Assembly (NCBI GenBank): GCA_964391545.1
Contig: CAYMMR010000032.1
Span: forward strand, 1-14,649
Reading direction: 5' to 3'
Source of the DNA: an uncultured Nitrospinota bacterium
GTDB taxonomy: Bacteria > Nitrospinota > Nitrospinia > UBA9942
Length of the DNA: 14,649 bases
Of the stretch, positions 155 to 13,702 are shown one piece after another (within the stretch, counting starts at the first letter, position 1; every line of letters begins with the position of its first letter). The notes under the pieces are model-generated. The model worked only from the letters and a program-made list of their open reading frames with translations, ran no database searches and had not been told where the DNA came from. A program made the position numbers and the translations under genes.

Positions 155-313
155 CCACAAAGGCACAAAGATCACAAAGGAAATAAAAGAAAAAGATTGA
201 GGAGAAATAGAGAAACAGTGAAAGGGAGAAAAAATAATTTTTATTTTTCCCTTTCTTTTCTTCATCTTCTCCCTTCCTCCTTTCCTTTCTTTGTGTCCTT
301 TGTGTCTTTGTGG
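155..313. repeat. Roughly 160-bp imperfect palindrome with a purine-rich left arm and a pyrimidine-rich right arm, terminal CACAAAG / CTTTGTG modules, and an A/T palindromic centre.
   Basis: ccacaaaggcacaaagatcacaaagg (155-180) pairs with cctttctttgtgtcctttgtgtctttgtgg (284-313). The interior is gaggagaaatagagaaacagtgaaagggagaaaaaataa | tttttatttttccctttcttttcttcatcttctcccttcctcc. Confidence 0.6.
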
Positions 314-767: not shown

Positions 768-2180
768 TCATACTCTTTCACCCCCTTTCAATCCCCTTAC
801 CTCTTGAACAACCTCTATGTTTATCATAGAAATGCTGCGTCCTCTTGCATAATCCTCTATGCTCTTTACCGCCTTCTTCCTTACAAAAAAGGGGATCTTC
901 ATTACTGCATCCTTTGCGTCCTGACTCCATGAGAGGCTTAATTCAGGCATAACACTTTCAGCCTCGGCATGGGCCGATTCCACATCTGTGAGGCTAAAAC
1001 CTCGCGCTACATTTTTATCGGATGGCTCATAAGCGCAGAACGGCTCTTCGGATAAATAATTTCCTGTTGCGCTGTATGCCCTCGCCCTGCATCCCTCGCA
1101 GATATGCTTAAACTCGCATACACCGCATTTTCCCTGGAGGAGGTCGGGATTTCTTAGATTTTTAAACACTAAAGAATCGTTCCATATATCCTGAAACCTC
1201 TCTTTTCTTATATCCCCTGCCTTTGCAGGCAGATAGCCGCAGGGAAATACTTCCCCTCTGTTAGATATAAAACATACCCCTGTCCCTGCAAGACACCCCT
1301 TTGTCATCGCAGACAGCCCGTGAGCAGACGCCTTACCTTCCCACTTTCCACCGAGGGACGAGATGGAATTTTTTGGCGTAGTTACCTTGTCCACATGCCC
1401 TGCTTTCAACTGCGTTCCGTGAGGGACGAATGGAGTGGGTTTTAGCCCCGCCTTTTTTTCCGATAGAATCCTCTCCGCCCTTACCCTGAAATAATGAGGG
1501 GCACAGGTAGCCTTCAAATCTATAGAGTGGAGCTTCGACTGGTCGTAAAACCAGTGGAGTATCTTTTCATATTCATCGGCGCTTACCATCTGGTCCTCTG
1601 CGATATCTACGCCGCAACCGACAGGCACAAGTAAAAAGGTATGCAGGGCATCCACACCAAGCTCCAATGCCAAATCCAGAATTTTAGGAAGTTCTTTAAA
1701 ATTATGTTTTGCAATTGTAGTATTTATCTGGGTTGATACGCTAAGCTCTATTAAATTTTTTATGCCTTCTATTGCCTTGTTAAACGAGCCGGGGATTGCG
1801 CGAAATTTATCGTGGGTCTCCGCCCTTGCCCCATCGAAGCTGATAGATATTCTGGCAAAACCTATATCCTTTATCCTCTTTGCCATTTCTTTATCAATCA
1901 TTGTCCCGTTTGTGGCAAGGGAGAGCCTCAACCCCTTTTTAATGCCGTATTCGGCTATCTCAAAAATATCCTTTCTGAACAGAGGCTCGCCGCCTGAAAG
2001 GACAAGTATGGGGTTTGAAAACTCTGCAATCTGTTCGATAAGGTCAAAGCCTTCCTGCGTAGACAATTCCACCTTTGACAATGAGGACTCAGGAACAGCC
2101 CTGCAATGAAGACATCTCAGGTTGCACCCTTTCGTAGTCTCCCAGAATATTAATCGTGGTATATATTGACGCTCTCCCAT
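768..2180 (-). CDS. Radical SAM/SPASM-domain enzyme (AhbC/AhbD/NirJ/PqqE-like) with a C-terminal extension of roughly 65 aa resembling the PCP_red domain (C-terminal domain of protochlorophyllide reductase BchB, PF08369).
   Basis: N-terminal PRLIFWETTKGCNLRCLHCRAV carries the CxxxCxxC motif. SGGEPL glycine-rich SAM motif. ISISFDGARAETHDKFRAIPGSF block. C-terminal Cys cluster GKCGVCEFKHICEGCRARAY (SPASM auxiliary cluster). The tail ...SWSQDAKDAVMKIPFFVRKKAVKSIEDYARGRSISMINIEVVQEV matches the W..A...L.KIPfFVR....E.fA...G...It.ev PCP_red pattern. Confidence 0.88.
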   Translation of the reverse strand: MGERQYIPRLIFWETTKGCNLRCLHCRAVPESSLSKVELSTQEGFDLIEQIAEFSNPILVLSGGEPLFRKDIFEIAEYGIKKGLRLSLATNGTMIDKEMAKRIKDIGFARISISFDGARAETHDKFRAIPGSFNKAIEGIKNLIELSVSTQINTTIAKHNFKELPKILDLALELGVDALHTFLLVPVGCGVDIAEDQMVSADEYEKILHWFYDQSKLHSIDLKATCAPHYFRVRAERILSEKKAGLKPTPFVPHGTQLKAGHVDKVTTPKNSISSLGGKWEGKASAHGLSAMTKGCLAGTGVCFISNRGEVFPCGYLPAKAGDIRKERFQDIWNDSLVFKNLRNPDLLQGKCGVCEFKHICEGCRARAYSATGNYLSEEPFCAYEPSDKNVARGFSLTDVESAHAEAESVMPELSLSWSQDAKDAVMKIPFFVRKKAVKSIEDYARGRSISMINIEVVQEVRGLKGGERV

Positions 2181-2342: not shown

Positions 2343-3554
2343 TTACATCCCCATCTTCTCCCTCGCCTCCTGCAGCACATCTTCCGTTATCTCTTTATAG
2401 CCCTTCTCTACAGCGTAACCGATTATCGCCTTTTTTGCCATATTTCTTACAAAAGGCGGTATCTTCTCGATACGGGACAGCGCCTCTTTTGTCCAGGGCA
2501 ATTCCTGACTTCCGACTTCTGTCTCCTGTCTTCTGTCTTCTTTTAATATATGCTTCTGTGTAACGATAAGAAGATTACAGGACGACTGAATCAGCAGATT
2601 TTCCGTTACGGAGCCCAAGTCAAGCCCGTTATCCGTATGATAACCGACTTTACCTGCTGCTGCCAGAGAAGGATTTTCCTTCTCTATATACTCCAGCACC
2701 TTATCGAACGGCCTGCCCGAAAAAAGGATCGTTTTTATATCCAGCCCCTCTTCTTTTGCAATTTTTTTTGCATTGTCCAGATGCCCCTGATATATCTTCT
2801 CCAGTCCTTTATCGATTATCTCGTCATGCAGCTTCTCCTGCTCTTTAAATTTAAAGAGCTTTCCGGCTTCCTCGGATAGAACCCCTGCAATACTCCTGAA
2901 GGCGACAACATGAAATTGAGGGTCGAATACAGCCACTGCCTCGAGGGGAAGATTAAATGCCTTTGCCAATGCAGCGCATCTTTTAACGGCAGCAAAGGAT
3001 TGGGGGCTTCCGTCAACCGCTACAATAATCTTTCTATCCCACTTTTCGGTTTTTTTTACAACCAGGATGTCGCTTTTAGACCTCCTTGCCACTCTCGATG
3101 TTACGCTTCCTATAAGGCTCCTTTTCAACGCACCAAGACCAAGCAAACCTATTATTACCAAATTGTATCGGCTTTCATTTATATCCTTCACAATCCGGGA
3201 ATAATTTTTGCCTTCCATGGTCTTCCGCTGAAATGCCACTCCGGCGCTCTTGCACATATTCTCGAAATGGTCAAGATATGAATCCGATATTATCTGCAAT
3301 CCCTTCGTTATCAGCGTGTCATGGATTTTTCTTTGACGGTCCAACTCCTCCTCTTCTTGATATTCGGGCGGAAGGCCGCTCTCCATCTGAGAAAATCTCT
3401 GGTCGTGAAGCCTGGCAGCATAAACATGATTTCCAATCAGAGTGGAATTGAATTTTCTTGCCAGAGAAATCCCGACATCTATGGCAAGATTGGAATGCTC
3501 CGAGTTGTCTACAGGGATTAATATGGTTTTAAATTGGCCGTTAAAATCCGACAT
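2343..3554 (-). CDS. Tandem universal stress protein (two UspA domains, both with an ATP-binding G-x2-G-x9-GS motif) fused to a C-terminal PCP_red-like domain.
   Basis: USP1 runs TILIPVDNSEHS...GLLGLGALKRSLIGSVTSRV. USP2 runs KIIVAVDGSPQS...GKVGYHTDNGLDLGSVTENLL. The tail PWTKEALSRIEKIPPFVRNMAKKAIIGYAVEKGYKEITEDVLQEAREK is the same motif as the tail of the neighbouring radical-SAM protein. A strong SD (GAGGAGGAGG) lies 4 nt upstream of the ATG. Confidence 0.85.
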   Translation of the reverse strand: MSDFNGQFKTILIPVDNSEHSNLAIDVGISLARKFNSTLIGNHVYAARLHDQRFSQMESGLPPEYQEEEELDRQRKIHDTLITKGLQIISDSYLDHFENMCKSAGVAFQRKTMEGKNYSRIVKDINESRYNLVIIGLLGLGALKRSLIGSVTSRVARRSKSDILVVKKTEKWDRKIIVAVDGSPQSFAAVKRCAALAKAFNLPLEAVAVFDPQFHVVAFRSIAGVLSEEAGKLFKFKEQEKLHDEIIDKGLEKIYQGHLDNAKKIAKEEGLDIKTILFSGRPFDKVLEYIEKENPSLAAAGKVGYHTDNGLDLGSVTENLLIQSSCNLLIVTQKHILKEDRRQETEVGSQELPWTKEALSRIEKIPPFVRNMAKKAIIGYAVEKGYKEITEDVLQEAREKMGM

Positions 3555-3678: not shown

Positions 3679-4047
3679 TTATTTTTCCCTATTCTTAAAC
3701 ACATCTCTTATCGTATTCCTTAATTCACTCAAGTCGGATGATTTTACCACATAGGCATCGGATGCCCATACCCTGAAATCCTGCTTATAATCGCTGTAGG
3801 CTGTGCACATCACTACAGGTATCTTGGCATCGGTCTCTCTTAATTTCCTTAAAAATTCTATGCCGTCCATCCCCGGCATCTTAACATCGAGCGTAATCAA
3901 ATCCGGATAGGATTCTTTCATTTTAATCATAGCATCTTCGGCATCCGAGGCTGTAATAACCTCATATCCCTCGTCTTCAAGCTCCTCCTTATATAGTATT
4001 CTTATATTCTCCTCATCATCGACTACAAGTATCCTCTTTTTTTCCAT
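3679..4047 (-). CDS. Stand-alone response-regulator receiver domain (CheY-like), cognate partner of the upstream GAF histidine kinase.
   Basis: VVDDEE acid pocket, phospho-acceptor LITLDVKMPGMDG, VMCTAY and YVVKS motifs. The track start MGGIM uses a TTG, so the ATG giving MEKKRILVV at 4045-4047 was chosen. A G-rich SD-like stretch (GGGGGG) lies upstream. Confidence 0.88.
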   Translation of the reverse strand: MEKKRILVVDDEENIRILYKEELEDEGYEVITASDAEDAMIKMKESYPDLITLDVKMPGMDGIEFLRKLRETDAKIPVVMCTAYSDYKQDFRVWASDAYVVKSSDLSELRNTIRDVFKNREK

Positions 4048-4062
4048 AATACCCCCCAAAGA

Positions 4063-4135
4063 TAAGCAATGAGCAATGAGTGCCGAGCAATGAGTCTCAT
4101 TACTCGTTGCTCATTGCTCGTTGCTCATTGCTTTT
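4063..4135. repeat. Roughly 70-bp near-perfect palindrome built from the GCAATGA(G) heptamer. The right arm lies inside the last 11 codons of the histidine kinase.
   Basis: agcaatgagcaatgagtgccgagcaatgagtctcattactcgttgctcattgctcgttgctcattgc. The right arm encodes the repetitive C-terminal tail ...[10 protein letters not shown] of the kinase. Confidence 0.7.
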
Positions 4136-6058
4136 TCTTTGCCTTCTCGGCAGATTAATAATGAATGTGGCGCCTTCGCCGACCCTGTTATTTATCTCTA
4201 TCGTTCCTCCGTGGCTCTCGACTATCTTCCTGCTTAACGAAAGTCCGAGACCCGTCCCGTATTTTTTAGTCGTAAAAAAGGGATTAAATATATTCTCTAA
4301 AATATCGGACGGTATCCCGCCGCCGGTATCGCTTATGCTTATCGTTACACCTTCCTCGCCGCTCAGAGTCTCCGTCTTTATTGACATAACCCCACCCTTC
4401 CCTGTCATAGACTCCACTGCATTATATAAAATATTGGTAATAACCTGCTTTATTTGAGGAGGGTCAATGCTTAAAGGACGAATTGCATCCGACATATATT
4501 TTTTAATTTCTATGCCGCTCTCCCAGAATGTATGCTCATAGAACGACAATAGCTCTTCGATTATGCCGTTTATATCGTTTTCCGAAAAATTAGGCTTTAT
4601 ATCCCTCGAATAGTTGAGTATATCCTTGAGGAGTCTTTCCAGCCCCTCCACCTCGCTGATTATTATGCTTGCATAGCTTTTCTCCTCGGATGTCGGCTCG
4701 TATTTTTCGGAGAGCCTCCTTGCAAATCCGCCGATAGTTACCAGAGGATTTTTTATCTCGTGGGCAAGCTCTGCTGCAAGCTCTCCAAGCGCCGAAAGCC
4801 TCTCCGACTGCACAACCTGCTGCTGCGCGGAGACGATTTCCCTATTCGCCTCCTTTAATTTTGCAAAAAGTTTCGAGTTTTCGATCGCCCATCCTGCATG
4901 AACTGCAAACCTTACGAGTGTCTGAAGGTCTTCATCCATTATGGGCTTGCCGGTATAGATATTATCCACTACTATAACGCCAAGCACATTTTCCTTTGCA
5001 ATAATCGGAACCGTGGCAAAGCTTTTAACCCCGCTCTTATTAATAATATCATGATTCACCCTCCTATCGTTCCATGCATCCTTTATATTGAAAGGCTTCT
5101 TTTCCATGACTGTCAGGGCTATAACCCCGCTCTCCACGGCTATAGGCAGTCTTATCCCTTTTATAAATTTATCATACATGGATTCTTTTTTTGCAGGCGC
5201 CTCCCCCTGAGATATAAGCCATGAAGACAGTTCGGTAATATGCGGCATCCTGCTCCATATCTGCTGCGCCTCTTCCCCAGAATCCGGACCAAGCCCCATC
5301 ATGCCCTGAATAGTGTCTGTCTTCTCATTAACAAGCAAGAGTCCTGCCCTGTTAAATCCGAATGCTCCGCCTGCGGTAACACAGCTTAATATTATCCTCA
5401 GCAATCTATCGAGATTAACGGTAGTCTGCATCGCAATGCTCATCTCATAGAGCATGGACAGCTCCCTCAATCTCTGTGTCGCCTTTTCATAGAGTTGCGC
5501 ATTTTTTATTATCCCGGATACCTGATCCGCTATTGTCGCCAGCAGCTTTATATCGTCCTCCGAATAATCGGTTTCTTTAATATTCTGGGTATATATAACG
5601 CCTATGCAGCAGTTCCTATCCATAATCGGAACCACAAGGACGGATTTAAACCTCTCCTCTTCCGTTACCGGGAAATGAATAAAGCGGGGGTCGCTTGCAG
5701 CATCCTTAAGCGACGCCGCCTTTTTGTTCTGGCATACCCACCCTGAAATCCCTTCGCCCATTCTAAGTATGACCTTGTTGATTGAAGCAGGATTTAAGCC
5801 CCTTGTAGCCTTTAACATAAGATTTTTACCTTCTTCGTCAACGAGGAGTATCGAGCAGGCATCTGCATTGGTATATTTTACGATTACCTCGACAATAGAA
5901 TTGAGCCTGTCTTCCAATTCCAGCGATGAATTGGCAATCCTGCTTACCTCGCTTAAAATCTCGAGCCGGTTGACCCCGCCGATTTTTTGCGCGGCTTTTT
6001 CTACCCTTCTTAAATGAGATTTTGATTTGGCCGGTTTCATATAAAAATATAGGGTCAT
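4100..6058 (-). CDS. Cytoplasmic sensor histidine kinase with GAF-GAF-HisKA-HATPase_c architecture.
   Basis: Two GAF-like blocks (…[13 protein letters not shown]…; …[12 protein letters not shown]…). H-box [21 protein letters not shown] boxes ISDTGGGIP...[20 protein letters not shown]. No TM segments. The track start at 6079 is a TTG inside a palindrome, so the true start is probably ATG 6058 ([10 protein letters not shown]) or 6040 (MKPAKS). Confidence 0.88.
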
Positions 6059-6115
6059 GGGGCAAGGGGCATGGGTCAAGAAAAACCTGACCCTTGCTAC
6101 TTGACCCTTGACCCT
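6051..6115. repeat. Imperfect palindrome of GGGTCA(A/T)GG modules spanning the HK start and the glgA stop.
   Basis: Left arm agggtcatggggcaaggggcatgggtcaag, loop aaaaac, right arm ctgacccttgctacttgacccttgaccct. The right arm encodes the glgA C-terminal residues GSRVK*. The left arm creates the spurious TTG-initiated MTHAPCP extension of the kinase ORF. Confidence 0.65.
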
Positions 6116-7596
6116 TTCTTCTCTATTGCCTTCTTATACAGTTCCAAATACTCCCTCGCAGAATGCCCCCATGAATAGTCCTCTCCCATAGCCTTAACCA
6201 TTAATTCCTTCCAATCGGGATGGACTCCGTAAACATCTACAGCCCTTTTAATCGCAGACAGCAGTTCCTTTGACGAATACTCTTTAAATTTAAACCCGTT
6301 TCCTGTCTTTTTTATAGGGTCGTAATTCTCGATGGTATCGTTCAGCCCTCCTGTTGCCCTCACAACCGGCACGGTTCCATATTTAAGGCTGTAAAGCTGG
6401 TTGAGCCCGCAGGGCTCGTATTTAGAAGGCATGAGAAACATATCCGCCCCCGCCTCGATTTTATGAGCCAGCGCATTATCGAAGCCGATCTTTATCCCTG
6501 CCTTTAACGGATATTTCTTTCCGATATCTTCAAAAATTTTTTGATATTTTTCCTTTCCTGTCCCGAGAAATATAAACTGGAGGTCGAGCCCCATCAGGTC
6601 GGCGATAACCTCCGTTACCAGATCAAACCCTTTCTGCTCATCCAAACGGGAGATAGCGGCTATAACGGGTATCTCTTTGGAGGGTGCGAGCCCGTATATA
6701 TCGAGCAAGTCTTTTTTACATTCCCACTTGCCCGACAGATCGTTTACCGAATATTTTGCGGCTAAATATCCATCTGTTTCAGGATTCCATTCTTCGTAAT
6801 CGATTCCGTTCAGGACGCCGCAAAGGTCGTCCTTTCTCTTTAGCAGGACACCGTCGAGCCCGCGTCCATACTCCTCTGTCTGTATTTCGAGGCTGTAGGT
6901 CTTGCTGACTGCCGTGATAATATCGGAATATAAGATGCCTCCTTTGAGAATATTTATCTTTCCATAAAACTCTATCCCCTCCGGTGTAAATATATCCCAC
7001 CCGAGATTTGTAAGGTGCATATCGAAATGCCAGAACAGCCCCTGATACCCTATATTGTGGACGGTGAAAAGGACTGCAGTATCTTTAAAAAACGGGTCGT
7101 TTTTATACAGCGTCTTCAAATAAACAGGCAGCATGCCCGTCTGCCAGTCATTGCAGTGAATAATATCGGGTTTAAATCCTATCGCCTTGCAGGCTTCAAG
7201 AACCGCCCTCGAAAAATATATAAATCTCTCTGCATTATCCGGATAATCCCCCTGCGGCGTTCCGTATAAATACTCCCTGTCGTAATACTCTTTTTTATCT
7301 ATAAAATATACAGGTATGCCTTTACTTGCCCCTTGCCCCCTGCCCCCTGCCTCTGAATTAATGTATCCTTTATATATCTTTGCCTCCTCGATTCTGTTCG
7401 ATATGGGAACGTTGATATTTTTGCCTGTATACTCAAGCCCGAATTTTTTCTCATCCACTATCTTATACTTCGGCATTATGGCGGCAACATCCTCGCCGAG
7501 TCTTTCGAGCGCCTTTGGCAGGGCGCCGGTTACATCTGCCAGTCCCCCGGTCTTTGCAAAGGGGACTATCTCGGGAGAGGATATAAGTATTTTCAT
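6097..7596 (-). CDS. glgA: Glycogen (starch) synthase, ADP-glucose type, GT5 family.
   Basis: MKILISSPEIVPFAKTGGLADVTGALPKAL has the hallmark KTGGL(A/G)DV N-terminus. Length 499 aa, with GT-B fold motifs throughout (…GFDNALAHKIEAGADMFLMPSKYEPCGLNQLYSLKYGTVPVV…). Confidence 0.93.
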   Translation of the reverse strand: MKILISSPEIVPFAKTGGLADVTGALPKALERLGEDVAAIMPKYKIVDEKKFGLEYTGKNINVPISNRIEEAKIYKGYINSEAGGRGQGASKGIPVYFIDKKEYYDREYLYGTPQGDYPDNAERFIYFSRAVLEACKAIGFKPDIIHCNDWQTGMLPVYLKTLYKNDPFFKDTAVLFTVHNIGYQGLFWHFDMHLTNLGWDIFTPEGIEFYGKINILKGGILYSDIITAVSKTYSLEIQTEEYGRGLDGVLLKRKDDLCGVLNGIDYEEWNPETDGYLAAKYSVNDLSGKWECKKDLLDIYGLAPSKEIPVIAAISRLDEQKGFDLVTEVIADLMGLDLQFIFLGTGKEKYQKIFEDIGKKYPLKAGIKIGFDNALAHKIEAGADMFLMPSKYEPCGLNQLYSLKYGTVPVVRATGGLNDTIENYDPIKKTGNGFKFKEYSSKELLSAIKRAVDVYGVHPDWKELMVKAMGEDYSWGHSAREYLELYKKAIEKKGSRVK

Positions 7597-7601
7597 AAAT
7601 T

Positions 7602-7665
7602 AAGGGGTCAAGGGGTCGAGTGAAAATCTAAACGAACCCTTGAACCCTCGAACCCGCGAACCCTT
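7602..7665. repeat. Imperfect hairpin of GGGGTCAAGG / GAACCC modules between the glgA start and the galT-like stop.
   Basis: aaggggtcaaggggtcgag ... gaacccttgaaccctcgaacccgcgaaccctt. The reverse complement of the right arm matches the left arm in about 15 of 19 positions. Confidence 0.55.
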
Positions 7666-8757: not shown

Positions 8758-8823
8758 AATAGTTAAGTTGTTGAGTGGTTGAGTTGTTAAACTACTCAAC
8801 TACTTAACAACTCAACTATTTAA
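8758..8823. repeat. Imperfect palindrome of GTTGAGT / ACTCAAC modules upstream of the PAS histidine kinase.
   Basis: atagttaagttgttgagtggttgagttgtt aaa ctactcaactacttaacaactcaactattt. Confidence 0.6.
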
Positions 8824-8835
8824 ACCCACTAATCG

Positions 8836-10356
8836 ATGAAAAAGGCGAAGGAATTAAAAATCTTAACGGACAAATTAGACCGGTCTTTAAAAGAGATAGC
8901 GGGACTAAAGACAAAGCTGGAGGAGTCCGAAAGGAGGTACTATGACCTCTATGAAAATGCGCCGGATATGTATCATACAATAAATACTAAAGGCATAATA
9001 ATTGACTGCAATAAAACAGAGGCAGAGGCATTGGGATATTCGAAGGAAGAGCTCATAGGACGGTCCGTGCTGAATATTCAGACGGAAGAATCTAAAAAAA
9101 TAGGAAAGGCCGCCATGAAAAAACTCTTTTACGCCGGAAAGGTAAAGGGGCTCGAACTCCAGTTTATAAAGAAAAACGGCGAGGTAATGGATGTCAGCAT
9201 AAACGCCACTGTTATATACGATAAAAACGGAAAACCTGCCGGCACAAGATCGGTAATCAGGGATATTACAAAGAAAAAGAGGATGGTGGAAATAATTAAA
9301 AACTCCAGACGCGAACTGCAGGCAACAATAGACGCCATAACGGATGGAATATGCCTGCTGGATAGGGCGTTTAGAATAGAACGGATAAATAAAAGCATGG
9401 CGGGGCTTTTCGGCAAATCACCCGTAGAGTTTATCGGCAAAAAATGCTATACTGTTTTCGAAAACAGGGAAAAGGTATGCGAGGGGTGCAAAATTATGGG
9501 AACATTTACCTCCGGAGAACCTGTGATTTATAACGATATTAAAAATATCGGCTACGGCACATCGCTCGAAGTTGAAATATCGGTATTCCCCGTTAAAGGC
9601 AATAAAAAAAAGGTGGAACAGGTGGTCTATTATATGAAAGATATAACGGAAAAGAGGAGGCTGGAGAGAGAGCTTGAGTATTCCAAAATCATGGCTTCGC
9701 TGGGTGAAATGGTAACAGGCGTCGCCCACGAGATAAGAACGCCGCTTCAGAACATACTTACGGGCATAGACCTTTTGGAATCCGAGGCAAAAAAGAAGGA
9801 TTTGAATCTTGAGGTGGCGGAGAATTTGAGAGATTTTGCAATTGATATGAACTATATCGTTCAGGAGCTTTTAGATTTCTCAAAGCCGGTAAAACTCGAA
9901 ATCGAGGAAAGGGATGTAACGGATATTATCGACGAAACGATAAAATATTTCAACCCGCGGATGAAGAAATGTAATATAATCGTATCCAGAAAATACAGCC
10001 GTCCGATAAAAAAGACATCTATAGATGTAAGGAGGATAAGGCATGTCTTCTTAAATATAATCGAGAATTCCATTAATGCCATGCCCGATGGCGGGGAAAT
10101 TACCGTGTCGGCCGAACCGTATTATGATAATAAGGGGGAATTTATCATAATAGTATTTTCCGATACGGGCCGCGGCATAGCCTCAAAAAACATCGGCAAG
10201 GTGTTCAATCCTTTTTTTTCAACGAGGACGGAGGGGATAGGGATGGGGCTTGCAGTGGCAAAAAAATTCATCAAGCTGCACAACGGCGAGATTAACATAA
10301 CCAGTAAAGAAGGGAAGGGATGCGAGGTAACGATATTACTGCCGGTAAAGAAGTAG
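8836..10356 (+). CDS. Cytoplasmic sensor histidine kinase with coiled-coil-PAS-PAS-HisKA-HATPase_c architecture.
   Basis: PAS1 YYDLYENAPDMYHTINTKGIIIDCNKTEAEALGYSKEELIGRSV. PAS2 carries an unusual C-x10-C-x2-C (CYTVFENREKVCEGCKIMG). H-box VTGVAHEIRTPLQNI. G-boxes FSDTGRGIASKNIGKVFNPFFST…GMGLAVAKKFIKLHNGEI. Confidence 0.88.
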   Translation: MKKAKELKILTDKLDRSLKEIAGLKTKLEESERRYYDLYENAPDMYHTINTKGIIIDCNKTEAEALGYSKEELIGRSVLNIQTEESKKIGKAAMKKLFYAGKVKGLELQFIKKNGEVMDVSINATVIYDKNGKPAGTRSVIRDITKKKRMVEIIKNSRRELQATIDAITDGICLLDRAFRIERINKSMAGLFGKSPVEFIGKKCYTVFENREKVCEGCKIMGTFTSGEPVIYNDIKNIGYGTSLEVEISVFPVKGNKKKVEQVVYYMKDITEKRRLERELEYSKIMASLGEMVTGVAHEIRTPLQNILTGIDLLESEAKKKDLNLEVAENLRDFAIDMNYIVQELLDFSKPVKLEIEERDVTDIIDETIKYFNPRMKKCNIIVSRKYSRPIKKTSIDVRRIRHVFLNIIENSINAMPDGGEITVSAEPYYDNKGEFIIIVFSDTGRGIASKNIGKVFNPFFSTRTEGIGMGLAVAKKFIKLHNGEINITSKEGKGCEVTILLPVKK

Positions 10357-10568
10357 TGTCAAAGTGTCAGAGTGTCAAAGTTTTAAACTAATGGATAGTC
10401 CCACAAATAGCTTTACCATAGTTTGTCATTCTCGCGAAAGCGGGAATCCAGTAAAATCAAAGACTGGATTCCGCATCGAGTGCGGAATGACAGTAAAGGA
10501 ACTTTAGAGACACTCTACTAACTATGACACTTTGATACTTTGATACTCTGACACTGCTTTGAGGTTTT
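10356..10568. repeat. Complex nested palindromic element between the HK and RR genes. Outer inverted arms are made of GTGTCAAAG modules. The inner 67-nt core is symmetric and can fold into a four-way junction.
   Basis: Outer left arm 10356-10380 gtgtcaaagtgtcagagtgtcaaag. Outer right arm 10525-10555 tgacactttgatactttgatactctgacac. Inner core 10425-10491 GTCATTC-tCGCgaaaGCGgga-ATCCAG-taaaatcaaaga-CTGGAT-TCCGCAtcgagTGCGGA-ATGAC. Confidence 0.65.
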
Positions 10569-10961
10569 ATGGACAAAGGCTCTATATTAATCGTGGATGA
10601 TGAGGATTTTGCAAAGAGCGGGCTTGCAAAAATTCTTGCGGAAGAGGGGTTTTCCGTTCATACTGCCGATGACGGAAAATCCGCACTGTCGGAAACAAAA
10701 AACAGAAGATTCGATTTGATTATAACCGACATAAAAATGCCTGAACTGGACGGCATAGAGCTTACAAGAAGCCTGAAGAAAAAAAATCCCAACCAGCATA
10801 TTATCGTTATGACCGCATACGGTAATATCGATTCTTATCTCGAGGTAATGAATTTAGGCTCCTTCGATTATATTCATAAGCCCTTCACTGCAAAGGAATT
10901 GCTGAGAATAGTAAACAAGGTATTTGAAGAGATAAAGGAGAAAGAATTTGACACAACATGA
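10569..10961 (+). CDS. Stand-alone response-regulator receiver domain (CheY-like), partner of the PAS histidine kinase.
   Basis: ILIVDDEDF, phospho-acceptor LIITDIKMPELDG, IVMTAYGN and YIHKPF motifs. GAGG SD 6-7 nt upstream. Confidence 0.88.
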   Translation: MDKGSILIVDDEDFAKSGLAKILAEEGFSVHTADDGKSALSETKNRRFDLIITDIKMPELDGIELTRSLKKKNPNQHIIVMTAYGNIDSYLEVMNLGSFDYIHKPFTAKELLRIVNKVFEEIKEKEFDTT

Positions 10962-10965
10962 GTGA

Positions 10966-11031
10966 ATTGATATAGTGTTAAGTAGTCGAGTGGTTAAACA
11001 ACTCAACAACTTAACTAAAATGGAGGTTAAA
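10966..11031. repeat. Imperfect hairpin of GTTAAGT / ACTCAAC modules between the RR stop and the tatA start.
   Basis: gttaagtagtcgagtggtt aaa caactcaacaacttaac. It uses the same module family as 8758-8823. Confidence 0.55.
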
Positions 11032-11250: not shown

Positions 11251-11257
11251 ACTGATA

Positions 11258-11340
11258 ATAGGTAAAGAGGCAAAGAGGTTAAGAGGCTAAAAGGTAAAGG
11301 CAATGCCCCTTGACCTCTTTGCCTTTTAACCTTTTTACCT
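11258..11340. repeat. Imperfect palindrome of AGGNNAAG modules between the convergent tatA and REC-GGDEF genes. Likely bidirectional terminator region.
   Basis: Left modules aggtaaag aggcaaag aggttaag aggctaaa aggtaaagg. Centre caatgcccc. Right arm ttgacctctttgccttttaacctttttacct is the reverse complement of the same modules and is T-rich at its 3' side. Confidence 0.55.
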
Positions 11341-12277
11341 ATTCACCCCTCAAGTCCTTCACATACTTGCTCCCTTTAAGCGATTTGGCATACTTCTTTA
11401 AATCCGCGGCAATGGCGCTTGCCTCTCCGAGGTGGTTTATCTTTCTCTTTTCGTTCGTCACCACTGCGACAGAGATAGTCATAATCGGGAATCTCTCCTT
11501 TTCCCCTTTTCTATTCACTGAATCCATATATCCTCTCACCCTGTCCTCCTCGTCATAAAAGGTGGTTATCAAGAGGTCAAAGTATTTAATAATCTGCCTG
11601 CATGCGCTTTCTACAAGCTCAACCGGCACTATGAATACAAAATCATCGCCGCCTACATGCCCGACAAATGTATCCGGGCAATTTAACTCCCTGACGGCAT
11701 TTGTTACGACACGGGCTGTCATTCTTAGTATCTCGTCGCCCCTGCTAAAACCGTATTTGTCATTATATGGCTTGAAATTATCGAGGTCTATGTAGGCAAG
11801 GGCAAACTTTTTATTCAAATCAACCCTCTTTTGCCCCTCTTTCATAATAGAGTTATTGCCCGGCAGGCGGGTAAGGGGATTGGCATCCAGTTCTCTTGCC
11901 GCTCTTGAAAAAGAAAGAGAAACCCTTAAGGTTAAGTCGTCGGAATTAAGAGGTTTTATAATATAATCGTCTGCCGGAATGGAGTCCCAGACGATTTTAC
12001 CCCGTTCAAATCCGGATGGTATAAGCAGTATCACAGGAAGGTGTCCATATACGGTATCGGACTTTAATTGACGGCAGAGTTCATCCCCTTTTATAGAGGG
12101 CATTTCAATGGCAATTATTATCAAATCCGGAGGCTCGTTGTATATTGCATCGAGCGCATTTTTACTGTCTTCCGTATAATACGCAAGATAGCCCTTTTCC
12201 CCGAGAGTGTTCCGAATAAATTCTGCGGTTCGAGAATCGTCATCTATTATTAAAATTCTCTTTTTACTTTCGGACAT
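11339..12277 (-). CDS. Response regulator with REC plus GGDEF (diguanylate-cyclase) domain. The active-site motif is GGDDF rather than GG(D/E)EF.
   Basis: REC: ILIIDDD, LIIIAIEMPSIKG, IIKPL. GGDEF domain: ALAYIDLDNFKPYNDKYGFSRGDEIL ... TFVGHVGGDDFVFIVP. Confidence 0.88.
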   Translation of the reverse strand: MSESKKRILIIDDDSRTAEFIRNTLGEKGYLAYYTEDSKNALDAIYNEPPDLIIIAIEMPSIKGDELCRQLKSDTVYGHLPVILLIPSGFERGKIVWDSIPADDYIIKPLNSDDLTLRVSLSFSRAARELDANPLTRLPGNNSIMKEGQKRVDLNKKFALAYIDLDNFKPYNDKYGFSRGDEILRMTARVVTNAVRELNCPDTFVGHVGGDDFVFIVPVELVESACRQIIKYFDLLITTFYDEEDRVRGYMDSVNRKGEKERFPIMTISVAVVTNEKRKINHLGEASAIAADLKKYAKSLKGSKYVKDLRGE

Positions 12278-13161: not shown

Positions 13162-13180
13162 TTTATTTATAAAAACACCG

Positions 13181-13314
13181 GAACACGAATTACACTAATA
13201 TACGAATGGCACGAATAAAAAAATCGAAATTGAGGCAATTTTTTAATTTTAATCTTTGATTTTTAATCTTTGATTTTCATTCGTGTAATTCGTCCATTCG
13301 CGCTATTCGTGTTC
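13181..13314. repeat. About 35-bp inverted repeats of ACGAAT(A/G) modules flanking a roughly 60-bp AT-rich spacer with a tandem 13-mer (ttttaatctttga x2).
   Basis: Left arm gaacacgaattacactaatatacgaatggcacgaat. Right arm attcgtgtaattcgtccattcgcgctattcgtgttc, whose reverse complement shares the outer 10 and inner 6 nt with the left arm. Direct repeat at 13246-13271. Confidence 0.55.
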
Positions 13315-13630
13315 ATGTTTTTATTCCCATCTTCTCTCTTATCCGTTTCTCGAATATCTCCTTTATCATCTTCATCACAGGGTCGGAGGAAATCTTTTCA
13401 AACCGCTTCTCCAAATCCCGAAGCTGCTCTTCGGGGGGCTTTTCTGCAACCCCTGTATCGACAGGATGCCCCTCTACCGTTATCTTCGGAATTCCCATGT
13501 TCGAAAGTCGGGATATAAGTGCATCGCTCAATTCAACACCCTCGCCGCAGAGAACCAGCCCCTTTTCATTCAATACGGATTTTGCCAGCTTCATCCCCGG
13601 TTTTGCCAGACTTAAAGGTATCTTTTGCAT
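13313..13630 (-). CDS. Small protein (about 105 aa) resembling the N-terminal DUF3391-type domain that precedes HD-GYP and other c-di-GMP signalling modules.
   Basis: MQKIPLSLAKPGMKLAKSVLNEKGLVLCGEGVELSDALISRLSNMGIPKITVEG fits the L.pGM.la.dv....G.lL...G..L....i.rL...Gi..i.v pattern. The track ORF's first 14 aa (MFFFSLALTLTCFF, TTG start) are translated palindrome. Confidence 0.5.
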   Translation of the reverse strand: MQKIPLSLAKPGMKLAKSVLNEKGLVLCGEGVELSDALISRLSNMGIPKITVEGHPVDTGVAEKPPEEQLRDLEKRFEKISSDPVMKMIKEIFEKRIREKMGIKT

Positions 13631-13638
13631 AAAAAAAC

Positions 13639-13702
13639 AGGTTAAGGTTAAGGCTAAGGAAAAGAAAAACAATCACTCAACCTCAACCTTAACCTCAACC
13701 TT
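13639..13702. repeat. Imperfect hairpin of AGGTTAAGG / CCTCAACCT modules between the small-protein start and the hflC stop.
   Basis: aggttaaggttaaggctaagg - aaaagaaaaacaatcact - caacctcaaccttaacctcaacctt. Confidence 0.6.

What the first reader, a model, noticed from the sequence alone, without database searches (positions are those of the whole stretch)
10356..10568. Highly structured 212-bp spacer between kinase and receiver: nested palindromes with a four-way-junction core
The kinase-to-receiver gap is far larger than needed. It contains outer GTGTCAAAG-module inverted arms and an inner 67-nt symmetric core: GTCATTC/GAATGAC closing stem, a CGC-GAAA-GCG tetraloop hairpin, an ATCCAG/CTGGAT stem with a 12-nt loop, and a TCCGCA-tcgag-TGCGGA hairpin. 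In mRNA this would sit between the two cistrons and could set their stoichiometry by partial termination or processing. The arms read ATTCTC-N8-GGGAAT and ATTCCG-N9-CGGAAT, which superficially recalls neisserial dRS3 (ATTCCC-N8-GGGAAT), but that is likely convergent. It could also be a small mobile palindromic element or a structured sRNA.
Basis: seen in the sequence. Interest (0 to 1): 0.6.

Follow-up and report, generated by a model that had tools for sequence, protein, structure and literature searches.

The report
Mobile palindrome inside an intergenic hairpin
The oversized gap between a sensor-kinase gene and its partner gene is an 82-base hairpin with a 126-base jumping element inserted at its tip, and that element carries two copies of a hairpin motif that in Neisseria is the target of a nuclease cutting single-stranded DNA.

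Summary
The 212-nt spacer (10357-10568) holds outer inverted arms made of 8-nt tandem units and a 67-nt core that folds as a four-way junction.

It is not one purpose-built structure but two nested, unrelated things.

1. A 126-bp non-coding element (10392-10517) has imperfect terminal inverted repeats. It is flanked by a 4-bp direct repeat, CTAA, at 10388-10391 and 10518-10521. At least 11 near-identical copies lie at different sites in contigs of the same uncultured Nitrospinota population. All six complete copies are 126 bp with YTAR-type duplications, the IS5 signature. Relatives lack it at this and another shared locus.

2. Removing it leaves an 82-nt hairpin of tandem octamers. Hairpins of this kind fill nearly every intergenic spacer of this lineage.

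The element's core is an inverted pair of Ssn-related motifs (NTS/dRS3-like hairpins; Chenal et al. 2025). The same doublet geometry occurs in more than 120 genome stretches from many phyla. The resemblance to dRS3 is therefore homology of motif, not convergence.

A regulatory role in kinase:receiver stoichiometry is neither supported nor excluded. No terminator and no Rfam family was found. Whether this genome encodes an Ssn nuclease could not be tested.

The parts
8836..10356 (+). Upstream gene: PAS-PAS-HisKA-HATPase_c sensor histidine kinase (context). Its stop codon TAG at 10354-10356 lies in the foot of the long stem.
   Evidence: stem foot from inverted repeat I1 (arms 10351-10381 / 10529-10559)
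10355..10381 (+). Left arm of the older hairpin: 8-nt tandem array AGTGTCAA x3.4
10388..10391 (.). Left copy of the 4-bp target-site duplication CTAA. Before the insertion it lay at the loop/stem junction of the hairpin apex.
10392..10517 (+). 126-bp non-autonomous transposable element (MITE-like). It has no ORF. It differs from the family consensus at two positions: C->T at 10432 and G->A at 10508.
10392..10402 (+). Left terminal inverted repeat TGGATAGTCCC
10424..10451 (+). Left Ssn-related motif (type A hairpin): TGTCATTCTCGCGAAAGCGGGAATCCAG. It reads forward on the + strand.
   Evidence: only SRM-pattern hit in the window, 0.065 expected; 26/28 to the NTS consensus
10453..10462 (.). 10-nt loop of the central stem (AAAATCAAAG) between the two motifs
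   Evidence: I7
10464..10492 (-). Right Ssn-related-like motif (type B hairpin). On the - strand it reads TGTCATTCCGCACTCGATGCGGAATCCAG. It fails the strict published pattern, but the same unit type flanks small GIY-YIG genes elsewhere.
10507..10517 (+). Right terminal inverted repeat GAGACACTCTA (consensus GGGACACTCTA)
10518..10521 (.). Right copy of the target-site duplication CTAA
10521..10555 (+). Right arm of the older hairpin: array ACTTTGAC x4.4, reverse complement of the left array
10561..10571 (+). Shine-Dalgarno GAGG (10561-10564) and ATG (10569-10571) of the receiver gene. They start 2 nt after the foot of the stem.
   Evidence: read from the sequence; stem end
10569..10961 (+). Downstream gene: single-domain response-regulator receiver (context)

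Best explanation
The spacer is a composite of two independent palindromes, one nested in the other.

(a) The older part is an 82-nt intercistronic hairpin whose arms are tandem octamers (GTGTCARA). It is one instance of a hairpin style that fills the intergenic spacers of this Nitrospinota lineage.

(b) A 126-bp non-autonomous transposable element landed in a CTAA at the apex of that hairpin and duplicated the CTAA. It has imperfect terminal inverted repeats (TGGAKWGTCCC). It always makes a 4-bp YTAR-type duplication, the signature of IS5-family DDE transposases. It is therefore most likely moved in trans by such a transposase (inferred).

(c) The centre of the element is an inverted doublet of Ssn-related motifs. 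These are the hairpin repeats (NTS/dRS3 in Neisseria) that small GIY-YIG Ssn nucleases bind as single-stranded DNA and cut a few nucleotides upstream. Because the two units are inverted, each DNA strand carries one forward, recognisable motif (inferred consequence).

The 'nested palindromes with a four-way junction' are thus an accident of insertion, not a device built for this operon.

The insertion is probably tolerated because it sits at the tip of the stem. It leaves the foot untouched, where the kinase stop codon and the receiver ribosome-binding site are brought together. Any effect on kinase:receiver expression is secondary and unproven.
For: Multi-copy element.
- An exact 20-mer from the right motif hit at least 119 metagenome stretches.
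- Fourteen of these loci carry near-identical copies of window 10392-10517, one of them two, and two further copies lie in L255.
- There are 11 different left flanks.
- Ten copies are cut by contig ends. Two of three independent assemblies of this very locus (L002, L003) break inside the element.

Same population.
- L255, with two copies, comes from the same sample as L001, which is identical to the window.
- Proteins on L169, L236 and L249 cluster at 90% identity or more with Nitrospinota MAG proteins.

Transposon anatomy.
- All six complete copies are exactly 126 bp.
- They are flanked by direct 4-mers: CTAA/CTAA, TTAG/TTAG four times, and ATAG/TTAG once.
- CTAA and TTAG are direct repeats, not inverted ones, so they are duplications and not part of the terminal repeats.
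- IS5 makes 5'-YTAR-3' duplications (PMC5009759).
- The terminal inverted repeats are shown.

Insertion, not ancestral.
- Orthologous kinase-receiver spacers of relatives are 49-81 nt and lack it.
- The clpP-clpX spacer of relatives lacks the copy present in L255.
- No such motif occurs in about 79 kb of relatives.

Reconstructed empty site. It is 82 nt and folds into a clean hairpin at -34.6 kcal/mol, z = -5.9. With more flank, z = -9.2, and the CTAA lies at the apex.

Motif identity.
- Left unit: the only hit to the published SRM pattern in the window (0.065 expected) and 26/28 to NTS (pattern from PMC11893778).
My own estimate of the chance expectation is about 3 hits.
- 81 full doublets were recovered, with recurrent inner-hairpin types.
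- The inner stem covaries: 97.5% of cells paired, 43 double-change cells against 9.8 in shuffles, 0 of 500 shuffles as high.
- Type B units directly flank small GIY-YIG ORFs (PF01541) in L175, L229 and L160.

Outer arms are generic.
- The window has 23 arrays of period 6-9, of which 17 have a reverse-complement partner.
- Paired arrays number 4.36 per 10 kb in this clade against 0.28-0.29 per 10 kb in 1.47 Mb of other loci.
- The same GTGTCARA hairpin occurs in two other spacers of the same population.
Against: - No transposase with matching ends was found in any held sequence, so the IS5-family assignment rests on the duplication alone.
- No GIY-YIG (Ssn) gene was seen in about 135 kb of this lineage, and the full genome was not available. 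Whether the motifs are functional targets here is unknown.
- The right unit fails the strict published SRM pattern.
- No high-identity empty site exists. The closest relative's contig ends 34 nt after the kinase stop, and the others are 63-65% identical in the kinase.
- Copies were retrieved by exact-match seeds. Their near-identity is partly a selection effect, and copy number per genome is not known.
- The strong fold and the position next to the ribosome-binding site would also suit a regulatory role, which was not tested.
Confidence: 0.8

Rival explanations
1. One reading: the whole 212-nt structure is a dedicated intercistronic RNA element. It would set kinase:receiver stoichiometry by partial termination, processing or occlusion of the ribosome-binding site.
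For: - The spacer lies between two co-oriented cistrons.
- It folds very stably as RNA.
- The stem foot contains the kinase stop codon and ends 1 nt before the receiver's GAGG.
- A second kinase-receiver pair in the window (3679-6079, - strand) also has a strong hairpin in its spacer, z = -8.0.
Against: - 130 of the 212 nt are a recent multi-copy insertion found at unrelated loci.
- Relatives manage with 49-81 nt, and their spacers fold weakly: z = -1.7, -2.5 and 0.0.
- There is no terminator-like site and no Rfam match.
- The same hairpin style occurs between genes of every kind and orientation.
Confidence: 0.1
2. The 126-bp unit is mobilised through its Ssn-related motifs by a GIY-YIG Ssn nuclease, in a REPIN/RAYT-like partnership, and not by a DDE transposase. 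The flanking repeats would then be a target preference of that process.
For: - The SRM-ssnA-SRM architecture is described as IS-like (PMC11893778).
- In L175 the gene-bearing cassette is flanked by gene-less doublets of the same geometry.
- Doublets sit in longer palindromic repeats in several phyla.
Against: - Ssn is only shown to cut ssDNA; no joining activity is reported.
- The two motifs would be cut on opposite strands, which does not excise a unit.
- Terminal inverted repeats lie 32 nt (left) and 25 nt (right) outside the motifs, and a fixed 4-bp YTAR direct repeat is classic DDE behaviour.
- Doublets in other phyla have unrelated outer ends, as expected if different transposons carry them.
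Confidence: 0.12
3. The element or the core encodes a discrete structured small RNA.
For: Strong predicted structure. There are weak sub-threshold Rfam hits: FtrB at E = 0.28 and mir-509 at E = 0.062.
Against: - The hits are far below gathering scores (21 against 64-66 bits).
- There is no convincing promoter.
- Copies occur in both orientations and at varied positions relative to genes.
- Ssn does not bind the RNA form of the motif.
Confidence: 0.03
4. The likeness to dRS3/NTS is convergent: any GC-clamped hairpin with ATTC/GAAT shoulders would look like this.
For: The motif is short. The window copy has a mismatch (ATTCTC) to strict dRS3.
Against: - Identity extends beyond the palindrome to the oriented flanks GTC...CCAG that define NTS.
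- The same 27-nt unit recurs in more than 120 genome stretches across phyla.
- The same unit type flanks GIY-YIG genes, the association that defines the family.
Confidence: 0.05

Closest known systems
Ssn-related motifs (SRM) / Neisseria Transformation Sequence (NTS) and the SsnA GIY-YIG ssDNA nucleases (Chenal et al., Nat Commun 2025, PMC11893778)
   Same: - It is a 27-28-nt oriented hairpin: GTCATTC-stem-loop-stem-GAATCCAG.
- The left unit matches the published degenerate pattern and 26/28 of NTS.
- Most sister copies are within the paper's one-mismatch NTS criterion.
- It is multi-copy and intergenic.
- The same unit types flank small GIY-YIG genes in other retrieved loci.
   Different: - Here the motifs occur as a tight inverted doublet (10-nt loop) inside a transposon-like element. 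They are not single repeats or a pair bracketing ssnA.
- No ssnA was found in the lineage sequence available.
- The host is a Nitrospinota MAG, a phylum the paper's text never names.
- My term searches of the paper found no mention of doublets or MITEs.
Neisserial dRS3 / NIME (ATTCCC-N8-GGGAAT)
   Same: The element's consensus left unit contains an exact dRS3 (ATTCCCGCGAAAGCGGGAAT). dRS3 is now understood as the palindromic core of NTS.
   Different: - The window copy itself reads ATTCTC-N8-GGGAAT, one mismatch.
- There are no 50-150-bp RS segments between dRS3 pairs, as there are in NIMEs (that feature of NIMEs is from my own knowledge).
- The host and the outer element are unrelated.
MITEs mobilised by IS5-family transposases
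   Same: It is small (126 bp), has no ORF, has terminal inverted repeats and is multi-copy. It makes 4-bp direct repeats of the YTAR type, as IS5 does (PMC5009759).
   Different: - The parent IS is not identified.
- The terminal repeats are short and imperfect: 8 of 11 in the window copy, 9 of 11 in sister copies with the TGGAGTGTCCC end, and 13 of 19 when extended.
- The interior is a structured SRM doublet and not a remnant of a transposase gene.
REPINs (REP doublets forming hairpins) and RAYT transposases
   Same: Two inverted copies of a palindromic unit are separated by a short spacer. They are dispersed in intergenic DNA. A small nuclease gene is itself flanked by the units (L175).
   Different: The unit sequence is unrelated. 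The partner enzyme is a GIY-YIG nuclease, not a Y1 (IS200/IS605-like) transposase. The REP GTAG signature is absent. Mobility through the units is not shown.
Intergenic heptamer repeats of Xanthomonas and Nostoc, including cyanobacterial heptamer repeats, and the TAACTGA repeats of Beggiatoaceae (PMC4692102, PMC4679880)
   Same: This comparison concerns the outer arms only. Short tandem units of 7-8 nt are confined to intergenic DNA. Length and sequence turn over quickly between relatives. Some occur as inverted pairs able to form stem-loops.
   Different: Here arrays are usually paired with a reverse-complement array (53 of 101 in the clade's loci, 17 of 23 in the window). Many different units coexist in one genome. 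Almost every spacer has one. The published cases use one or a few units genome-wide and are mostly direct repeats.

Membership tests
Ssn-related motif (SRM) / NTS | Match to the published degenerate pattern HGTCWYN(0-2)YYVSBRHN(0-5)WNVSBRGN(0-2)RNCYNB | tested here: met
   Left unit 10424-10451 (+) matches and is the only hit in 14.6 kb; shuffles give 0.065. The right unit (- strand, 10464-10492) does not match the strict pattern.
Ssn-related motif (SRM) / NTS | Match to the NTS consensus CGTCATTCCCGCGMAVGCGGGAATCYRG with at most one mismatch (the paper's search criterion) | tested here: not met
   The window copy has 2 mismatches, at positions 1 and 9. Eight of the eleven other distinct copies that include this unit, reading TGTCATTCCCGCG(A/T)AAGCGGGAATCCAG, have one, or two with the T-loop variant. 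The window copy is therefore an SRM, not a strict NTS.
Ssn-related motif (SRM) / NTS | Hairpin-forming semi-palindrome with a conserved oriented 5' GTC and a C after the palindrome | tested here: met
   Read from the sequence. The inner stem covaries across 61 distinct units from many phyla: 97.5% paired, 0 of 500 shuffles as high.
Ssn-related motif (SRM) / NTS | Many copies per genome | tested here: inconclusive
   At least 11 distinct insertion sites of the carrying element were found in contigs of this population.
Ssn-related motif (SRM) / NTS | Genome encodes an Ssn (single-domain GIY-YIG, cd10448), typically flanked by the motifs | not testable with these tools
   None in about 135 kb of lineage loci. 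A protein search with the L175 homologue returned only Flavobacteriaceae among its named hits. Elsewhere, type B units do flank GIY-YIG ORFs.
Ssn-related motif (SRM) / NTS | Bound and cut as ssDNA by the cognate Ssn | not testable with these tools
   This needs a biochemical assay.
dRS3 (ATTCCC-N8-GGGAAT, no mismatch) | Exact 20-bp palindromic pattern | tested here: not met
   The window reads ATTCTC-N8-GGGAAT and ATTCCG-N9-CGGAAT. Most sister copies read ATTCCCGCGAAAGCGGGAAT, an exact match.
MITE (non-autonomous DDE-transposon derivative, IS5-like) | Terminal inverted repeats | tested here: met
   TGGATAGTCCC on the left. The reverse complement of the right end is TAGAGTGTCTC in the window (8 of 11 match), TAGAGTGTCCC in the family consensus and TGGAGTGTCCC in four sister copies (9 of 11). 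Thirteen of 19 positions match when extended.
MITE (non-autonomous DDE-transposon derivative, IS5-like) | Target-site duplication of fixed length | tested here: met
   Six of six complete copies have 4-bp direct repeats, five of them perfect, of the form YTAR. This matches the IS5 duplication motif (PMC5009759).
MITE (non-autonomous DDE-transposon derivative, IS5-like) | Short, non-coding, multi-copy, constant length | tested here: met
   All complete copies are 126 bp; there are at least 11 sites.
MITE (non-autonomous DDE-transposon derivative, IS5-like) | Absence at orthologous sites (presence/absence polymorphism) | tested here: met
   It is absent from the kinase-receiver spacer of L005, L008 and L011 and from the clpP-clpX spacer of L252 and L253. 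These relatives are diverged, so no base-exact empty site was seen.
MITE (non-autonomous DDE-transposon derivative, IS5-like) | Autonomous partner IS with the same ends | tested here: inconclusive
   No other occurrence of the ends in any held locus or in viral contigs. The genome was not available.
REPIN / RAYT | REP units with a conserved 5' GTAG and an associated Y1 transposase | tested here: not met
   The units begin with GTCATTC and have no GTAG. The associated genes elsewhere are GIY-YIG. It resembles a REPIN in layout only.
Intrinsic (Rho-independent) terminator | GC-rich stem followed by a U tract | tested here: not met
   0 terminator-like sites in 10250-10700.
Any curated RNA family (Rfam 15) | Score at or above the gathering threshold | tested here: not met
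   No hit in the window. The best sub-threshold hits score 21 bits against 64-66 needed.

The most novel reading that the evidence does not exclude
Inverted doublets of Ssn-related motifs may be a cross-phylum module in their own right. They would be the gene-less counterpart of the SRM-ssnA-SRM cassette, as REPINs are to RAYT genes.

Such a doublet places one cleavable hairpin on each DNA strand. Unrelated transposon-like palindromes in many phyla would have captured it repeatedly. In this Nitrospinota population an IS5-type MITE would then be spreading ssDNA-nuclease sites through the intergenic DNA. That DNA is already packed with tandem-octamer hairpins, which could reflect a lineage-specific palindrome-generating or palindrome-tolerating process.

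If so, Ssn sites would be disseminated by hitch-hiking on transposons. They could mark or fragment single-stranded DNA genome-wide, far outside the naturally transformable pathogens in which they were described.
Probability: 0.25. Interest if true: 0.7.

Novelty: new variant of a known kind. Interest (0 to 1): 0.45.

Why it matters
For this locus, the result removes a tempting but probably wrong reading. The elaborate nested structure is an insertion accident, not a bespoke regulator of a two-component system.

More broadly, three points could guide work on the Ssn nucleases described in 2025, whose role outside Neisseria is open.
1. The dRS3/NTS-type hairpin is present in an uncultured Nitrospinota lineage.
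3. Here, and apparently elsewhere, these doublets travel inside MITE-like elements.

The pervasive tandem-octamer hairpins of this lineage are an unexplained genome feature that deserves its own study.

Tried and rejected
- **Known RNA families.** Rfam at gathering thresholds over the whole window gave nothing. A permissive E-value search on the spacer gave only chance-level hits.
- **Plasmid records.** blastn of the element against PLSDB plasmids found no match.
- **Terminator and promoter scan**. There was no terminator. Two weak promoter-like matches are within the shuffle range.
- **GIY-YIG genes next to doublets in the genome hits.**
  - A first regular expression found nothing, and a phmmer search with a recalled YhbQ sequence found nothing; both were weak tests.
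  - ORFs between distant motif pairs in L103 and L058 are unrelated proteins.
  - A recalled consensus of the small GIY-YIG family then found six real ORFs in the metagenome loci, confirmed by Pfam.
- **Ssn in Nitrospinota.** A protein search with the L175 homologue returned 5039 hits. Every named hit among the top 120 is from Flavobacteriaceae or other Bacteroidota, so it says nothing about this lineage.
- **Parent IS.** The element's ends do not occur anywhere else in the held loci or in viral contigs.
- **Idea that the element prefers hairpin loops: rejected.** Only the window copy sits in a strong hairpin (z = -9.2). The five other reconstructed empty sites have z between +0.7 and -1.0.
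- **Idea that a strong hairpin is conserved in this spacer across the clade: not supported.** Relatives give z = -1.7, -2.5 and 0.0.
- **Literature on tandem-octamer inverted arrays**. No description was found; only partial analogues exist.
- **Viral contigs.** The doublet pattern occurs in only 10 stretches, so there is no sign that it is a phage feature.
Full report
**The observation**

The window encodes a PAS-PAS-HisKA-HATPase histidine kinase (8836-10356) and a single-domain receiver (10569-10961) on the + strand.
- An array AGTGTCAA x3.4 (10355-10381) faces its reverse complement ACTTTGAC x4.4 (10521-10555). The arms are 31 nt and 84% complementary.
- A 67-nt core (10425-10491) has a GTCATTC/GAATGAC closing stem, a CGC-GAAA-GCG hairpin, a 10-bp central stem GGAATCCAGT/ACTGGATTCC and an ATTCCGCA-tcgag-TGCGGAAT hairpin.

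The spacer folds at -74.5 kcal/mol, z = -8.4. The RNA optimum for the core alone is the four-way junction, at -29.5 kcal/mol. With DNA parameters that junction is only one of several near-equal folds.

**Organism and synteny**

The kinase's closest homologues (85%, then 65-63% identity) are annotated as Nitrospinae/Nitrospinota MAG proteins. The identical locus appears in three independent assemblies.

Gene order is conserved in relatives, but the kinase-receiver spacer there is only 81, 65 and 49 nt and holds no GTCATTC core. The contig of the 85% relative stops 34 nt after the kinase stop, inside a different tandem array (AGTTAAG).

**The outer arms are a lineage-wide style**

Repeat searches over the whole window show that almost every intergenic spacer carries tandem units of 6-9 nt facing a reverse-complement array, with different units at different spacers. 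The sites are 156-312, 636-703, 4062-4132, 6051-6116, 7602-7664, 8760-8823, 10963-11017, 11257-11343, 13173-13322 and 13639-13701.

A uniform TRF-based count gives 23 arrays in the window, 17 of them with a partner. In 121.6 kb of this clade there are 4.36 paired arrays per 10 kb. In 1.47 Mb of loci from other organisms there are 0.28-0.29 per 10 kb. Several of these hairpins are very stable, with z from -6 to -8.

The GTGTCARA unit of the finding's arms recurs in the clpP-clpX and clpX-lon spacers of the same population. The outer arms are therefore not specific to this operon.

**The inner part is a mobile element**

An exact 20-mer from the right inner hairpin hit at least 119 metagenome stretches. 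Fourteen of these loci carry near-identical copies of a unit longer than the core, corresponding to window 10392-10517; one of them carries two. Two more copies lie in L255.
- There are 11 different left flanks, so at least 11 insertion sites.
- Ten copies are truncated by contig ends. Two of the three other assemblies of this very locus break inside the unit. Both patterns are typical of a multi-copy repeat.
- L255, with two copies, comes from the same sample as L001.
- Proteins on three other carrier contigs cluster at 90% identity or more with Nitrospinota MAG proteins.

All six complete copies are exactly 126 bp and are flanked by 4-bp direct repeats: CTAA/CTAA in the window, TTAG/TTAG four times and ATAG/TTAG once. 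The two variants are reverse complements of each other, yet each copy has the same 4-mer on both sides. They are therefore target duplications and not part of the terminal repeats.

A 4-bp 5'-YTAR-3' duplication is the documented signature of IS5 (PMC5009759). The ends are imperfect inverted repeats: TGGATAGTCCC on the left and TRGAGTGTCCC for the reverse complement of the right end. The window copy differs from the consensus only at 10432 (C->T) and 10508 (G->A).

This is the anatomy of a MITE. I infer, but did not show, mobilisation in trans by an IS5-family transposase. No parent element was found.

**The reconstructed ancestral spacer**

Deleting 10392-10521 leaves 82 nt, in line with the 81 nt of relative L005. 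It folds into a clean 25-bp hairpin with a 7-nt loop, at -34.6 kcal/mol and z = -5.9. With more flank, z = -9.2. The CTAA target lay at the loop/stem junction.

The other five reconstructed empty sites are unstructured, with z from +0.7 to -1.0. The element therefore has no preference for hairpins, and the nesting here is incidental.

**What the core is**

Each half of the core is one ~27-nt unit, GTCATTC-stem-loop-stem-GAATCCAG, and the two units are inverted.

Chenal et al. (PMC11893778) showed the following.
- Neisserial dRS3 (ATTCCC-N8-GGGAAT) is the palindromic core of a 28-nt oriented repeat, NTS (CGTCATTCCCGCGMAVGCGGGAATCYRG).
- Related 'Ssn-related motifs' occur in many bacteria.
- The 94-aa GIY-YIG nuclease SsnA binds the motif only as single-stranded DNA and cuts a few nucleotides upstream. 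It acts on neither dsDNA nor RNA.
- ssnA genes are typically flanked by the motifs in an IS-like arrangement.

The window's left unit (10424-10451) is the only match to their degenerate pattern in the window (0.065 expected) and matches NTS at 26 of 28 positions. Most sister copies carry an exact dRS3.

The right unit has a 5-nt loop and fails the strict pattern. The same 'type B' unit nevertheless directly flanks small GIY-YIG ORFs (PF01541) in L175, L229 and L160. In L175 the order is doublet, then unit-ssnA-unit, then doublet, all in the same geometry.

**Distribution of the doublet**

My estimate of the chance expectation is about 3. By record title the hits come from:
- Alpha-, Beta- and Gammaproteobacteria, and 'Deltaproteobacteria'/Thermodesulfobacteriota;
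- Nitrospirota, Planctomycetota and Chloroflexota;
- Patescibacteria and Ignavibacteria;
- Verrucomicrobiota, Armatimonadota, Gemmatimonadota, Aminicenantes, Elusimicrobia and others.

Eighty-one are complete doublets with recurrent inner-hairpin types. Across 61 distinct units the four variable stem pairs covary: 97.5% paired, and 43 double-change cells against 9.8 in shuffles. In several phyla the doublet again sits inside a longer palindromic repeat with its own, unrelated ends. The doublet is rare in viral contigs, at 10 stretches.

The likeness to dRS3 is thus membership of one widespread motif family, not convergence.

**How it most likely works**

*Shown:* the spacer equals an older hairpin plus a MITE-like insertion carrying an SRM doublet.

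*Inferred:*
- The element moves by a DDE transposase supplied in trans.
- The inverted doublet places one forward motif on each DNA strand. Whichever strand becomes single-stranded would then offer an Ssn site 5' of the doublet.
- The insertion is tolerated because it sits at the tip of the stem. The foot is left intact; there the kinase stop codon (10354-10356) and the receiver's GAGG and ATG (10561-10571) are juxtaposed.

*Unknown:*
- Whether this genome has an Ssn. None was found in about 135 kb, and a protein search was uninformative.
- Whether either hairpin affects expression. There is no terminator and no Rfam family, and relatives' spacers fold only weakly.

**Verdict**

Its main regulatory reading lacks support. 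Its dismissal of the dRS3 likeness is contradicted.

The element is a new family that combines two known kinds: an IS5-type MITE and Ssn-related motifs. The widespread doublet arrangement, its carriage by transposon-like repeats and the tandem-octamer hairpins of this lineage are the parts worth following up.

Noticed in passing
window 156-312, 636-703, 4062-4132, 6051-6116, 7327-7351, 7602-7664, 8760-8823, 10963-11017, 11257-11343, 13173-13322, 13639-13701: Nearly every intergenic spacer holds tandem 6-9-nt units facing a reverse-complement array, with different units at different spacers. Paired arrays are about 15-fold denser in this Nitrospinota clade than in 1.47 Mb of other loci. Density falls with distance from the window: L004 dense, L005 intermediate, L008 and L011 sparse. 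I found no published description.
   Followed up: partly
window 8760-8823 and 10963-11017: The kinase-receiver pair is bracketed by two hairpins built from the same GTTGAGTN / AACTACTC unit. The arms 8770-8809 and 10976-11015 are 88% complementary (I4). The upstream hairpin has z = -8.2.
   Followed up: no
L255 2367-2719 versus L252 2814-3000 and L253 650-836: The clpP-clpX spacer has two nested tandem-array hairpins. In L255 they are ACGGATAA outside and GTGTCARA inside. The orthologous spacers of relatives keep the nested layout with other units, CGCAGATT and GCAAGAG. The layout is thus conserved while units change in both arms together.
   Followed up: partly
L255 3969-4043: A third GTGTCARA-type hairpin lies in the clpX-lon spacer of the same population. 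This octamer family is therefore dispersed in the genome and not local to the finding.
   Followed up: partly
L087 720-755: A Nitrospirae groundwater MAG carries GTGTCAAAG x4 apparently inside a coding region, reading ...MIKGMCQSVKVSKCQSKI.... The same octamer array thus also occurs outside Nitrospinota and outside spacers.
   Followed up: no
L175 380-980: In a Flavobacteriaceae-like contig, a 100-aa GIY-YIG (Ssn-like) gene sits between a forward and a reverse motif. It is flanked on both sides by gene-less doublets of the same two unit types. This suggests that doublets are gene-less versions of the ssnA cassette.
   Followed up: partly
L049, L080, L091 (Dehalococcoidia); L052, L089 (Thermodesulfobacteriota); L025, L043, L088 (Ca. 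Hatepunaea): SRM doublets in other phyla are also embedded in longer palindromic repeats whose outer ends are shared within a genome, for example ...GGCCTTTTCAAAG... / ...CTTTGAAAAGGCC... These ends are unrelated to the Nitrospinota element.
   Followed up: no
window 3679-6079 (- strand), hairpin 4062-4132: A second kinase (GAF-HisKA-HATPase) and receiver pair also has a strong tandem-heptamer hairpin in its spacer, overlapping the kinase stop region: -40.8 kcal/mol, z = -8.0.
   Followed up: no
L199 about 2985-3030: Next to one copy of the 126-bp element lies another hairpin repeat of the GTCATTGCGAG...CGAAGCAATC type. It may be a further SRM variant in the same metagenome.
   Followed up: no
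window 768-2180 and 2343-3554 (- strand): Both a radical-SAM/SPASM protein and a tandem-Usp protein end in a PF08369 domain, the C-terminal domain of the protochlorophyllide reductase 57-kD subunit. The pairing is conserved in relatives.
   Followed up: no
L258-L267 (IMG/VR contigs): Only 10 stretches on 8 viral contigs contain the SRM-doublet pattern. One 44.9-kb contig carries it at three places.
   Followed up: no
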